The notes under the pieces are model-generated. The model was not told the DNA's origin. It saw only the letters and a list, made by a program, of their open reading frames with translations, and did no database searches. 64,000 nt of DNA. Origin: a virus. Taxonomy: Duplodnaviria; Caudoviricetes. Below, piece after piece: positions 35,028-37,926 of the stretch. Within the stretch, counting starts at the first letter, position 1. The number at the start of each line of letters is the position of its first letter. Location of the stretch: positions 1-64,000 of the IMG/VR virus record IMGVR_UViG_3300037067_001739, one strand, 5' to 3'. The translations under genes and the position numbers were made by a program.

Positions 35028-35429
35028 ATGAATACAAAAGATATAGGTGATATTACTCAAGCTAAACTAGAACTAAAATTGTTGCTACAAGGTTACGTAG
35101 TATTGACCCCACGTGGTGATAATCTTAGATACGACTTTGTTATTGAGCGTAATGGTAACTTTGATAGAGTTCAGTGTAAGACTGGACGTTACAGAAAAGG
35201 ATGTGTGGTATTTGATACTCGTTCTTCTAGTTGGCACAGAGACGGTAAGAAAGAACCGTATAATAAATATCAGATAGATTTCTTTGGAGTATATTGTCCT
35301 CAGTTGGATAGTTATTACTTGATACCTGTTGAGGATATTGGTGATAAATACCAGTGTAACTTGCGGGTTGATGAACCGAGGAAGAAAAATAATCGTTATA
35401 TTTGGGCAAAAAATTATATTCTGGTGTAG
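35028..35429 (+). CDS. Group I intron-associated-type PD-(D/E)XK endonuclease
   Basis: GDITQAK...GYVVLTPRGDNLRYDFVIE...RVQCKT...IDFFGVY...YLIP. Confidence 0.85.
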   Translation: MNTKDIGDITQAKLELKLLLQGYVVLTPRGDNLRYDFVIERNGNFDRVQCKTGRYRKGCVVFDTRSSSWHRDGKKEPYNKYQIDFFGVYCPQLDSYYLIPVEDIGDKYQCNLRVDEPRKKNNRYIWAKNYILV

Positions 35430-35495
35430 TTCAATCGGTAGAGCAGGCGGCTGTTAACCGTCAAGTTGATGGTTCGAGACCATCCACCAGAGCCA
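35420..35495 (+). tRNA. tRNA-Asn(GTT)
   Basis: Loop CTGTTAA, G73, CCA. Confidence 0.92.
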
Positions 35496-35665
35496 TGCAG
35501 AGAATAAAGATTCCTGAGTCTAGCTACTTTGTCTATTGTAATGACAAGTGCGAGACGTGCGAGGTCAGATTCAGGTGTTTCACCAGTCGTGAAATGCTTG
35601 TTGTTGATTTACCTACAGCAAAAAGGATAGTCGAGTCTGAATATATGGATTGGTTAATTAGGTAG
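35495..35665 (+). CDS. Small protein with CxxCxxRFxCFT motif
   Basis: CETCEVRFRCFT; CCATG start. Confidence 0.65.
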   Translation: MQRIKIPESSYFVYCNDKCETCEVRFRCFTSREMLVVDLPTAKRIVESEYMDWLIR

Positions 35666-36015: not shown

Positions 36016-36333
36016 ATGATACCAAGAAGGATAATGCTAAAAGGCAAAACTGGACACAACGAATATATGTGTTCGGGGTCTTCTTGTGATACTTGTAAAC
36101 TCAGATTTGAATGCTTTACTGAGGATAGAGAACATATACTTTGGTTAGAGTGGGATGAGCTTCACGCAAAGTATAGAGGAATCAGTCCTTCAAGAGTATT
36201 GAGAGACATAATCGGTAGTAAAGTTTGGGTTGAGGGTAGCAGAAGGTTCAGAGAAAATATGGAAAAGGCAAGGAGCTTGCTTCCATCTGAACAGCGTGAT
36301 ATTAGAGTTCAACATTTATTAAGGGAGCTATAG
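36016..36333 (+). CDS. Hypothetical protein with CxxCxxRFxCFT motif
   Basis: CDTCKLRFECFT; stop lies inside tRNA-Leu(AAG). Confidence 0.65.
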   Translation: MIPRRIMLKGKTGHNEYMCSGSSCDTCKLRFECFTEDREHILWLEWDELHAKYRGISPSRVLRDIIGSKVWVEGSRRFRENMEKARSLLPSEQRDIRVQHLLREL

Positions 36334-36397
36334 CCCAACTGGCAGAGGTAACTGGCTAAGAACCAGTACAGTAAGAGTTCGAATCTCTTTAGCTCCA
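36324..36397 (+). tRNA. tRNA-Leu(AAG), short variable arm
   Basis: ACTGG-CTAAGAA-CCAGT anticodon arm; no CCA. Confidence 0.85.
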
Positions 36398-36399
36398 CA

Positions 36400-36821
36400 A
36401 GCAAGCAGGACGAGTGAACGCTCTACGGAGAGGAAAGTCCGAACACCTTTGAGCAAGATGCAGGGTAACACCCTGGCAGAGTAATCTGACGATTAGAGCA
36501 ACAGAGACGAGTTGAGATGGACGAAAAAGAGTTAGAAGAAGAACTTCGTAAGCGTAGTGCGTTTTATGAATTGGGATACCAAATTGAACAGTTCAAAAAC
36601 ACACTTCGTAGCGAGTTTGAAAAACTCTTTAAGTTTATACTCAAGTGAAACGGGCAATCTCCATCTGGTGCAACACCAAACAGAAGGCGATGCTAGGTCG
36701 TAATGGACTAAGCGGGATGCGCTCAACGTAGTCTTCGGGTAGGTGGCAAGGAACTTAGCAGTAATGTTAAGTCAAGTCAAATGTTCACATAGACAGAATT
36801 CGGCTTACAGTCCAGCTTGCT
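36400..36821 (+). ncRNA. rnpB: RNase P RNA with an expanded P12 loop
   Basis: P1 AGCAAGC/GCTTGCT, CR-I GAGGAAAGTCC, CR-II AGAGCAACAGAGA, CR-III GTGAAAC, CR-V ACAGAATTCGGCTTA. Confidence 0.93.
36517..36648 (+). CDS. 43-aa ORF nested in the RNase P RNA P12 loop
   Basis: MDEKELEEELRKRSAFYELGYQIEQFKNTLRSEFEKLFKFILK; below the ORF-track size cutoff. Confidence 0.55.
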   Translation: MDEKELEEELRKRSAFYELGYQIEQFKNTLRSEFEKLFKFILK

Positions 36822-36825
36822 ACAT

Positions 36826-36900
36826 GGTGGTGTTGGTCTATAGGTATGACGGTTGGTTGTGACCCAGCCAAAATGGGTTCGATTCCCATACACCACCCCA
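36826..36900 (+). tRNA. tRNA-His(GTG)
   Basis: G-1:C73, loop TTGTGAC, CCA. Confidence 0.92.
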
Positions 36901-36902
36901 TA

Positions 36903-37346
36903 ATGATAAAAGAATTTCAGAGTGAGAATAGGTTTCTCTCCAATTTTTGGTTCTGCAATGGTGTAACTCTTGATGGTAAGAATTACCCATCTGTAGAGCA
37001 CGCATACCAAGCGGCAAAGACACTTGACGATAAGCAGAGAGAGGCAATTCGAACTGCGAAAACACCAGGAGAAGCCAAGAAGCTTGGCAAATCAGTAACG
37101 ATACGACCTGATTGGGAAGACGTAAAGATTGATGTAATGTACGGTTTGCTTAAACAGAAATTTAGCGAGAGCAACCCATTGTTACTGAAAAAGCTGAAGG
37201 ACACTGGCAATCAGGTGTTGCAAGAGGGTAATTATTGGTATGATACCTTTTGGGGAGTTGACCTAAGAACTGGTAAGGGACAAAATAACTTGGGTAAATT
37301 GCTCATGAAAGTAAGGGATTCATATGAGAATAATGCTCAAAAGTAA
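36903..37346 (+). CDS. NADAR/YbiA-family protein
   Basis: FLSNF, YPSVEHAYQAAK, AKKLGK, EGNYWYDTFWG, GQNNLGKLLMKVR. Confidence 0.93.
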   Translation: MIKEFQSENRFLSNFWFCNGVTLDGKNYPSVEHAYQAAKTLDDKQREAIRTAKTPGEAKKLGKSVTIRPDWEDVKIDVMYGLLKQKFSESNPLLLKKLKDTGNQVLQEGNYWYDTFWGVDLRTGKGQNNLGKLLMKVRDSYENNAQK

Positions 37347-37897: not shown

Positions 37898-37926
37898 TTG
37901 ACTTTGTAAGTGGCATTGTGTATAAT
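37898..37926 (+). promoter_or_regulatory. Sigma70-type promoter
   Basis: TTGACT-17 nt-TATAAT. Confidence 0.8.

What the first reader, a model, noticed from the sequence alone, without database searches (positions are those of the whole stretch)
36400..36821. Phage RNase P RNA whose P12 loop is a complete protein-coding ORF
Seen: the RNase P conserved regions I checked (CR-I, II, III, V and P1) are present. Between CR-II (AGAGCAACAGAGA) and CR-III (GTGAAAC), a 5-bp P12 helix (TTGAG 36512-16 / CTCAA 36640-44) encloses about 123 nt. An ATG sits at the first loop base (36517) and the frame stays open until TGA at 36646-48, which is the TGA of the conserved GTGAAAC. The product, MDEKELEEELRKRSAFYELGYQIEQFKNTLRSEFEKLFKFILK, looks like a real amphipathic helix, and the purine-rich loop does not look like a base-paired P12 extension. 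P13/P14 appear to be absent. Established: P12 is the most length-variable RNase P element. Inference: this is a dual-function ribozyme/mRNA, or a gene inserted at a neutral site. Translation would unfold the specificity domain, so the two functions may be mutually exclusive.
Basis: partly seen in the sequence, partly recalled or inferred. Interest (0 to 1): 0.9.

Follow-up and report, generated by a model that had tools for sequence, protein, structure and literature searches.

The report
Phage RNase P RNA, ORF-bearing P12
A 134-kb tailed phage carries its own intact RNase P ribozyme gene inside its tRNA cluster, and this ribozyme's most variable arm (P12) is a 133-base paired rod that also reads as a 43-codon open frame; the frame shows modest signs of being a real small gene, but nothing shows that it is translated.

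Summary
The RNA is real. It matches bacterial class A RNase P RNA at 175.6 bits (cut-off 100) over 36402-36823, with a tRNA 3 nt away on each side, and P13/P14 are absent.

One observation is wrong. The insert is not unpaired; it folds into a roughly 45-bp imperfect rod (-40 kcal/mol, z -5.3).

Relatives with 85-91% identical cores carry unrelated P12s of 24-120 nt with stops in every frame. One relative has an HNH nuclease gene at this site, so P12 is a hypervariable slot.

For coding:
- A chance ATG ORF of this length occurs in 0.2-0.6% of hairpin-preserving permutations.
- Codon usage is gene-like (p about 0.04).
- In the only variant strain, 4 of 5 substitutions fall on third codon positions (p about 0.045), and three break RNA pairs.

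Against coding:
- There is no Shine-Dalgarno sequence.
- The AUG lies inside the helix.
- No homologue exists among 1.8 billion representative proteins.
- A partly homologous P12 carries frame-breaking indels and a stop.

I put about 50% on an untranslated rod and about 37% on a young micropeptide gene. This scan has found phage RNase P RNAs before on other DNA, including the nuclease-bearing one. I found no paper describing either.

The parts
36324..36398 (+). tRNA-Leu(AAG), ends 3 nt before the RNase P RNA
   Evidence: ARAGORN; Rfam tRNA 57.3 bits
36402..36823 (+). Phage-encoded RNase P RNA, bacterial class A, P13/P14-less form, 422 nt
   Evidence: RF00010 175.6 bits, E 5e-55, model 1-367. 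Core is 85-91% identical to RNase P RNAs in tRNA arrays of other IMG/VR phages.
36402..36511 (+). 5' core: P1-P11 strands, CR-I (GAGGAAAGTCCG), and CR-II/J11-12 (AGAGCAACAGAGACGAG, ends 36511)
   Evidence: cmscan alignment. 0 differences in 110 nt against the 95%-identical strain L026.
36512..36644 (+). P12: lineage-specific 133-nt imperfect rod hairpin, about 45 bp with a 15-nt apical loop
   Evidence: MFE -40.2 kcal/mol, z -5.3. Replaced exactly at 36511/36645 in close relatives from landfill metagenomes. Unique in the 134-kb genome. 5 differences in 133 nt against L026.
36517..36648 (+). 43-codon ORF (protein P0001) filling P12; its stop is the TGA of CR-III GTGAAAC
   Evidence: the ORF listing. 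Codon LLR 0.30 per codon. 4 synonymous and 1 non-synonymous change against L026. No SD, -2.9 kcal/mol. No homologues.
36645..36651 (+). CR-III / J12-11 (GTGAAAC), followed at once by the P11 3' strand, so P13/P14 are absent
   Evidence: Invariant in the family alignments
36652..36823 (+). 3' core: P11'-P10' and following returning strands, P15-P17 with the GGU motif, P18 (GUAA loop), CR-IV, CR-V, P4' and P1'
   Evidence: cmscan alignment. With 36645-36651 included, 2 differences in 179 nt against L026.
36827..36900 (+). tRNA-His(GTG) with encoded CCA, starts 3 nt after the RNase P RNA; the NADAR-family gene starts at 36903
   Evidence: phrog_1017 match from residue 2

Best explanation
36402-36823 is a working, phage-encoded class A RNase P RNA. 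It is transcribed as part of the phage's 37-tRNA array and is probably released from that transcript by the same tRNA end-processing it helps to catalyse. The phage has no rnpA, so the RNA would pair with the host's RnpA protein. It belongs to a phage family with a cut-down specificity domain: no P13/P14, with CR-II, P12 and CR-III leading straight back into P11. The same build occurs in Burkholderiales bacteria.

In this family P12 is a hypervariable slot. It is replaced wholesale even between phages whose ribozyme cores are 85-91% identical. In this lineage it holds a 133-nt, roughly 45-bp imperfect rod.

My committed reading is that the rod is an RNA-level P12 expansion that points away from the active site and is tolerated. 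On this reading the 43-codon frame is a by-product of a purine-rich, 3-periodic (GAA-type) 5' arm paired to its complement. At most it is a very young proto-gene, not an established translated gene.

Shown: the RNA's identity, the missing P13/P14, the paired rod, P12 hypervariability, and the intact ORF. Inferred: catalytic activity, use of host RnpA, release by tRNA processing, and non-translation.
For: Identity and intactness:
- 175.6 bits over the full model, with all conserved regions and the P4 strands present.
- 0 of 110 and 2 of 179 core positions differ from a strain whose protein genes differ at 6.5% of sites. Five neighbouring tRNAs show 0 differences in 372 nt, so the core is under tRNA-like constraint.
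- No PF00825 (rnpA) match in the 134-kb genome.

Family:
- Every RNase P RNA that kept CR-II and CR-III, in about a dozen phage tRNA arrays, lacks P13/P14. L020 and L383 have lost both conserved regions.

P12 is a paired RNA element:
- z -5.3 in the window and -3.85 in the variant strain, with the same rod in both.
- Relatives also have hairpin P12s, at -0.24 to -0.54 kcal/mol per nt.

Hypervariable, with an ORF only here:
- P12 is 14, 38, 41, 63, 96, 97 and 120 nt in relatives, and 24 nt in a landfill variant. The sequences are unrelated, there are stops in all frames, and open-frame codon scores run from -0.41 to 0.05.
- L007's P12 shares a significant 33-nt local match with codons 5-14 (score 26; 300 shuffles averaged 14.4, maximum 21). 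It has 1-nt and 5-nt indels and a TAG in the corresponding frame.

No translation signals:
- Anti-SD pairing is -2.9 kcal/mol, against a gene median of -6.2 and a random-position median of -2.2.
- The AUG is inside the helix.

Orphan:
- Only the peptide itself turns up among 5.8 billion clustered proteins and 1.84 billion representatives.
- No Pfam or PHROG family.

Other weak points of the coding signals:
- Amphipathicity is not above null.
- The gene-like codon score comes mostly from the GAR/AAR codons of the 5' arm: 0.49 there against 0.13 in the 3' arm.
Against: - A full-length ATG ORF is rare by chance in a rod of this composition: 0.2% for at least 43 codons and 0.6% for at least 40.
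- Its codon score of 0.30 per codon lies inside the real-gene range (0.36 +/- 0.15). It is above all 46 spurious ORFs inside genes, and at the 96th percentile of chance ORFs in permuted rods.
- In the one variant strain (L026), 4 of 5 P12 substitutions are at third codon positions and synonymous. Neighbouring real genes show 63% at third positions and a non-coding sequence would show 33%, giving a likelihood ratio of about 7.
- Three of those five changes break G-C pairs of the rod and cost about 8 kcal/mol. This is not what purifying selection on RNA pairing predicts.
- P12 evolves at a gene-like rate (3.8%), not at the core's rate (0.7%).
- A sister RNase P RNA carries a genuine HNH gene at the same site, so coding sequence at this position has a precedent.
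- Several real genes in this tRNA array also lack an SD.
Confidence: 0.5

Rival explanations
1. Dual-function RNA. The P12 rod is also a young, lineage-specific micropeptide gene (43 aa, P0001) that arose de novo inside the hairpin. It would be translated from the unfolded precursor or from a P12 fragment. Ribosome passage would melt P12 and the CR-II/CR-III module, so one molecule could not translate and bind tRNA at the same time.
For: - ORF chance is 0.2-0.6%.
- Codon score has p about 0.04 given an ORF.
- 4 of 5 substitutions are at the third position and synonymous, p about 0.045. Fisher-combined with the codon test (my own arithmetic, no tool call), p is about 0.013.
- Three substitutions break pairs, and P12 changes at a gene-like rate.
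- An HNH gene sits at the same site in sister L020.
- SD-less genes are common in this array.
Against: - No SD, and the AUG is paired.
- No homologue anywhere.
- The ORF is absent from every more distant relative, including the partly homologous L007 P12, which has indels of 1 and 5 nt and an in-frame stop.
- Only five substitutions support selection.
- The codon signal is concentrated in the GAA-rich arm.
- Amphipathicity is not significant.
- The finding was selected for having an ORF.
Confidence: 0.37
2. Intervening-sequence-like element. The long rod is a substrate for a double-strand RNase such as RNase III and is cut out, as happens with the extended helices of some 23S rRNAs. That would leave a two-piece RNase P RNA and a free hairpin RNA whose AUG lies near its new 5' end. 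This is compatible with either reading of the ORF.
For: - The rod is about 45 bp, sits at a helix tip, and is sporadically present or replaced among close relatives.
Against: - There is no evidence for cleavage, and no RNA runs are available.
- The rod has many mismatches and bulges.
- Relatives with 14-41-nt P12s show that no excision is needed.
Confidence: 0.12
3. The insert is the decayed remnant of a mobile or protein-gene insertion of the HNH type seen in L020. It retains an ORF-like look but has no function.
For: - The P12 site hosts an HNH gene in L020. L383 has the same junctions with only about 100 nt, which suggests gain and loss at this site.
Against: - No similarity between the peptide and the HNH protein, or to anything else.
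- The junctions differ: CR-II and CR-III are intact here but lost in L020 and L383.
- A remnant would not be expected to form a near-perfect 45-bp rod over its full length.
Confidence: 0.06
4. The RNase P RNA is a decaying, inactive copy, and P12 is free to drift.
For: - The S-domain is reduced, with no P13/P14.
- P12 changes quickly.
Against: - The core is as conserved as the tRNAs between strains: 2 of 289 nt against 6.5% in genes.
- All conserved regions are intact and the model match is full length.
- The same reduced build is the normal one in the bacterial rnpB of the Burkholderiales genomes found here.
Confidence: 0.04

Closest known systems
Bacterial class A RNase P RNA (Rfam RF00010; E. 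coli M1 RNA/rnpB), in the P13/P14-less, long-P12 form found here in Burkholderiales (Comamonadaceae, Rubrivivax, Roseateles, Acidovorax and others)
   Same: - Full-length model match, CR-I to CR-V, the P4 pseudoknot strands, the P15 GGU motif, and P18 with a GNRA loop.
- Identical CR-II and CR-III flanks (CAACAGAGACGAG ... GGTGAAACGGGCAATCTC), with nothing between CR-III and P11'.
   Different: - Carried by a phage, inside a tRNA array, at 45% GC. The one bacterial copy examined (L214) is 65% GC.
- The bacterial copy examined (L214) has a conserved, branched, GNRA-capped P12 of about 130 nt. Here P12 is an unbranched AU-rich rod, lineage-specific and hypervariable, and it reads as an ORF.
Other phage-encoded RNase P RNAs in tRNA arrays
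   Same: - Same family and the same genomic setting.
- The closest relatives have cores 85-91% identical.
- No P13/P14, and P12 varies from 14 to 120 nt.
   Different: - Only this lineage's P12 has a start-to-stop ORF with gene-like codon usage.
- I found no paper describing this family.
Sister phage RNase P RNA with an HNH endonuclease gene at the P12 site (L020:924-1785, minus strand)
   Same: - A protein-coding frame nested in the same arm of a closely related ribozyme (core about 88% identical) and closed by a short helix.
   Different: - There the gene is 167 aa with a recognisable domain (PF01844), has a GAGG SD, is not itself a hairpin, and has displaced CR-II and CR-III.
- Here the ORF is an orphan of 43 aa, is coextensive with a rod, and CR-II and CR-III are intact.
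ORFs looped out of peripheral helices of other structured RNAs: homing-endonuclease or maturase ORFs in group I/II intron loops, and the ORF in 23S rRNA intervening sequences of Leptospira (from memory: Ralph and McClelland 1993; not checked here)
   Same: - Coding sequence tolerated at a solvent-exposed, length-variable helix tip of a ribozyme or stable RNA.
- Sporadic distribution among relatives.
   Different: - Those ORFs have conserved protein families and sit in loops. None is known in RNase P RNA.
- No homology here.
Dual-function bacterial RNAs (RNAIII/hld, SgrS/SgrT, SR1/SR1P; tmRNA)
   Same: - One transcript with both an RNA-level job and a short ORF.
   Different: - Those are regulatory RNAs with demonstrated translation and ribosome-binding sites.
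- Here the host RNA is a ribozyme and translation is untested.

Membership tests
Bacterial class A RNase P RNA (RF00010) | Covariance-model score above the curated cut-off over the full model | tested here: met
   175.6 bits against 100, model 1-367, E 5e-55
Bacterial class A RNase P RNA (RF00010) | Conserved regions CR-I to CR-V and P4 pairing with a bulged U | tested here: met
   GAGGAAAGTCCG, GCAACAGAGA, GTGAAAC, AAATG and ACAGAATTCGGCTTA are aligned to the model. AAG-U-CCGAA pairs with TTCGGCTT by inspection.
Bacterial class A RNase P RNA (RF00010) | P13/P14 in the specificity domain (typical of E. coli-type class A) | tested here: not met
   CR-III is followed at once by P11'. The Burkholderiales rnpB examined also lacks them yet passes the model, so this is a subtype feature and does not exclude membership.
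Bacterial class A RNase P RNA (RF00010) | P15 internal loop GGU motif (binds tRNA 3'-CCA) and P18 with a GNRA loop | tested here: met
   CGGGTAGG and CAGTAATG are aligned to the model
Bacterial class A RNase P RNA (RF00010) | Catalyses 5' maturation of pre-tRNA together with RnpA | not testable with these tools
   No rnpA in the phage, so use of the host protein is inferred
Protein-coding gene / dual-function RNA | Intact ORF kept across homologues | tested here: inconclusive
   Intact in 4 contigs at 95-100% identity. The element is replaced by non-coding hairpins in all relatives whose cores are 85-91% identical.
Protein-coding gene / dual-function RNA | Purifying selection at the protein level | tested here: inconclusive
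   4 synonymous and 1 non-synonymous change, 4 of 5 at the third position, p about 0.045, from only five substitutions
Protein-coding gene / dual-function RNA | Ribosome-binding site and an accessible start codon | tested here: not met
   Anti-SD pairing is -2.9 kcal/mol, the level of random positions. The AUG is paired in the rod.
Protein-coding gene / dual-function RNA | Gene-like codon usage | tested here: met
   0.30 per codon against 0.36 +/- 0.15 for real genes; p 0.04 against chance ORFs in permuted rods. The signal is driven mainly by the 5' arm.
Protein-coding gene / dual-function RNA | Evidence of translation | not testable with these tools
   No RNA run holds the stretch
Homing-endonuclease or mobile-gene insertion in a structured RNA | Recognisable nuclease or maturase domain in the nested ORF | tested here: not met
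   No Pfam or PHROG hit for the 43-aa product. The sister L020 does have HNH.
rRNA-type intervening sequence | Extended stem-loop at a variable helix tip, sporadic among relatives | tested here: met
rRNA-type intervening sequence | Excision by RNase III without religation | not testable with these tools
   Needs RNA data or an enzyme assay

The most novel reading that the evidence does not exclude
An RNase P ribozyme that is also a messenger. The P12 rod of this phage's RNase P RNA encodes a newly born 43-aa peptide. It would be translated from the unfolded array transcript or from an excised P12 fragment. Translation and tRNA recognition would then be mutually exclusive states of one molecule. 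This would be the first coding RNase P RNA and a datable case of de novo gene birth inside a ribozyme helix.
Probability: 0.35. Interest if true: 0.85.

Novelty: new variant of a known kind. Interest (0 to 1): 0.6.

Why it matters
RNase P RNA is a universal ribozyme, and I know of no case, and found no paper, in which it carries a translated frame.

Phage-borne copies are unreported in the literature I could search. They show that large tRNA-array phages bring their own tRNA-processing catalyst.

This family also shows how far the specificity domain can be remodelled in nature. P13/P14 are absent. P12 is swapped freely, from 14 nt up to a 500-nt nuclease gene.

If the 43-codon frame is translated, it would be a new class of dual-function RNA and a datable example of gene birth from a structural hairpin. 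If it is not, the case still shows that a long purine-rich rod can pass ORF and codon-usage filters, and that gene callers annotate it as a protein. This peptide is already in public protein collections.

Tried and rejected
- blastn of the RNA against 50,697 GenBank phages: no match.
- The insert as a repeated or mobile element in its own genome: it is unique, with only a 17-nt chance match.
- Peptide homologues: the word-indexed search and the full HMMER search found only the peptide itself plus two long coiled-coil proteins that match by composition. Pfam and PHROGs gave nothing, the ESM Atlas gave no usable hit, and there is no similarity to the L020 HNH protein.
- Amphipathic-helix test: not above null. 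I dropped it as evidence.
- RNA-seq support: no RNA holder is listed for this stretch. The four runs laid are DNA contigs, and none covers the insert except a trace in X2.
- More variant strains: only L026 differs. L024, L025 and L224 are identical in the RNA.
- Syntenic relatives L259/L260 and L261 have no RNase P RNA at this position.
- Literature searches for phage RNase P RNA, or for ORFs in P12: nothing relevant.
- I did not fold the peptide or test a complex. A helix prediction for an E/K/L-rich 43-mer would not separate the hypotheses.

Full report
WHAT IS THERE

The window is the first 64 kb of a 134,397-bp IMG/VR virus record estimated at about 90% complete. It encodes a DNA polymerase, a DnaB-type helicase and tail proteins, so it is a tailed phage. 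Between about 26 and 45 kb it carries 37 tRNA genes.

Rfam's bacterial class A RNase P model matches 36402-36823 on the + strand at 175.6 bits against a cut-off of 100, E 5e-55, over the whole model. tRNA-Leu(AAG) ends 3 nt upstream and tRNA-His starts 3 nt downstream.

CR-I, CR-II, CR-III, CR-IV/V, both P4 strands, the P15 GGU motif and a GNRA-capped P18 are all in place. GTGAAAC (36645-51) runs straight into GGGCAATCTCC, the returning P11 strand, so P13/P14 do not exist. The phage has no rnpA.

THE INSERT IS A PAIRED ROD

- about 45 pairs with a 15-nt apical loop
- -40.2 kcal/mol, z = -5.3, with none of 200 dinucleotide shuffles as stable

The ORF and the hairpin are the same sequence. The purine-rich 5' arm gives the Glu/Lys/Asp-rich N-terminal half, and its complement gives the Phe/Leu/Lys-rich C-terminal half. 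The 'amphipathic helix' impression does not exceed what permuted hairpins or residue shuffles give (p about 0.1).

THE FAMILY

Pattern scans of IMG/VR, followed by Rfam searches, found the same kind of RNase P RNA in about a dozen other phage tRNA arrays. Some sit next to a tmRNA gene. The loci are L003, L004, L007, L008, L011, L015, L019, L257, L382 and the syntenic L258.

Every member that kept CR-II and CR-III lacks P13/P14.

The same flanks, enclosing a GC-rich, branched, GNRA-capped P12 of about 130 nt, are the normal rnpB build in the Burkholderiales genomes found here, such as Comamonas, Acidovorax, Rubrivivax and Roseateles. This makes that order a plausible donor or host lineage. That step is an inference.

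P12 IS A HYPERVARIABLE SLOT

The closest relatives have cores 85-91% identical to the window. Their P12s are 97, 96 and 120 nt of unalignable sequence, with stops in every frame. More distant members have 14, 38, 41 or 63 nt.

Contigs from four landfill metagenomes match the flanks at about 90-95%. They depart from the window exactly at 36511/36645, and one carries a 24-nt hairpin there instead.

In sister L020, whose core is about 88% identical, the site holds a 167-aa HNH endonuclease gene (PF01844, 26.7 bits against a cut-off of 21.4). The gene is closed by a 10-bp helix, and CR-II and CR-III are lost. L383 has the same junctions with only about 100 nt between them.

The window's rod is unique within its own genome.

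One relative's P12 (L007) shares a significant 33-nt local match with codons 5-14 of the ORF. It has 1-nt and 5-nt indels and a TAG in the corresponding frame. So whatever common ancestor these inserts had was not kept as this ORF.

IS THE ORF A GENE?

Signals for coding:
- Chance. In permutations that keep the hairpin and the composition of each arm, an ATG ORF of at least 43 codons appears in 0.2%. An ATG ORF of at least 40 codons appears in 0.6%, or 1.8% with any start codon. Because the finding was chosen for its ORF, I give this little weight.
- Codon usage. The codon log-likelihood is 0.30 per codon. Windows of real genes give 0.36 +/- 0.15, 46 spurious ORFs inside genes give -0.17 +/- 0.14, and chance ORFs in permuted rods give 0.10 +/- 0.12, so p = 0.04. 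Most of the signal comes from GAA, GAG, AAG and GAC codons in the 5' arm.
- Substitutions. The peptide's 90% cluster has one variant, R13H. Its contig (L026) is about 95% identical to the window. Neighbouring genes differ at 6.5% of sites, with 63% of changes at third positions. Five tRNAs differ at 0 of 372 sites, the ribozyme core at 2 of 289, and P12 at 5 of 133. Four of those five are third-position and synonymous, giving p about 0.045 against a non-coding expectation and a likelihood ratio of about 7.
- RNA pairing. Three of the five changes turn G-C pairs into A-C mismatches and cost about 8 kcal/mol, although the rod persists.

Signals against coding:
- There is no Shine-Dalgarno pairing: -2.9 kcal/mol, which is the level of random positions. 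Most genes of this phage have GGAG-type sites, with a median of -6.2.
- The AUG sits in the helix.
- No homologue exists among 5.8 billion clustered proteins or 1.84 billion representatives.
- No relative beyond 95% identity keeps the frame.

A caveat cuts the other way. Genes in this array, such as the NADAR-family gene at 36903, start right after tRNA 3' ends without an SD. SD-less initiation is therefore normal here, but those starts lie at processed ends and this one does not.

VERDICT

I weighed the two selection-free tests (combined p about 0.013, my own Fisher combination) against the missing initiation signals, the orphan status and the non-conservation. That gives about 50% for an untranslated P12 rod whose frame is incidental. 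It gives about 37% for a young translated micropeptide gene, which would make this a dual-function ribozyme/mRNA. The remainder goes to a decayed gene insertion or an inactive RNA copy. An RNase III-excised, intervening-sequence-like rod is compatible with either main reading; I give it about 12%.

What is solid:
- a conserved, probably active, phage-encoded RNase P RNA
- a P13/P14-less specificity domain
- a hypervariable P12 site that in a sister phage demonstrably hosts a protein gene

RELATION TO EARLIER WORK

This scan has already reported phage-borne RNase P RNAs on other DNA, including an enlarged-P12 relative and the HNH-bearing one. I re-derived the HNH case independently on L020. I found no paper on phage RNase P RNA or on an ORF in P12. 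No RNA-level data exist for this phage.

Noticed in passing
L020:924-1785 (minus strand); L383:528-902 (minus strand): A sister phage RNase P RNA carries a 167-aa HNH endonuclease gene at the P12 site. The gene is closed by the helix CTCCTACTTA/TAAGTAGGAG and flanked by a TAAACTCC direct repeat. CR-II and CR-III are lost, and there is an extra insertion of about 75 nt in P3. L383 has the same junctions with only about 100 nt and no HNH.
   Followed up: partly
L214:3337-3769 and about 120 loci L262-L381: In the Burkholderiales genomes found (Comamonadaceae, Rubrivivax, Roseateles, Acidovorax and others), the CR-II and CR-III flanks match the phage family exactly and enclose about 110-140 nt. 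The one copy aligned to the model (L214) lacks P13/P14 and has a branched, GNRA-capped P12. This order is a possible donor or host lineage of the phage RNA.
   Followed up: partly
window 36016-36333, 35402-35665, 37910-38299: Small Cys-rich paralogous ORFs lie scattered between the tRNAs and share the motif C..C..RF.CFT. They match no PHROG family. Orthologues at 50-63% identity sit next to RNase P RNA or tRNAs in related contigs.
   Followed up: partly
window 36900-36905 and other tRNA/ORF junctions: The NADAR-family gene starts at 36903, 2 nt after the CCA of tRNA-His, with no SD (+2.8 kcal/mol). This fits the tRNA-punctuated, possibly leaderless expression that another reader noted for this array.
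   Followed up: partly
L026:5357-5707: The 95%-identical strain has an extra 116-aa RF-1-domain gene (PF00472, ArfB or peptidyl-tRNA-hydrolase-like) between tRNA-His and the NADAR gene. The window lacks it.
   Followed up: no
window 36522, 36554, 36561, 36720: Four of the seven window/L026 differences in the RNase P gene are transitions at CpG. This may reflect cytosine methylation and deamination in this phage or its host.
   Followed up: no
L015:10752-11100, L257:11520-11873, L382:4423-4727: Several related phages carry a tmRNA gene within about 0.5-1 kb of their RNase P RNA in the tRNA array.
   Followed up: no
L018:461-767 (minus strand): A 307-nt RNase P-like RNA lies between two tRNAs and scores only 68.8 bits, below Rfam's cut-off. 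It may be a further reduced phage variant.
   Followed up: no
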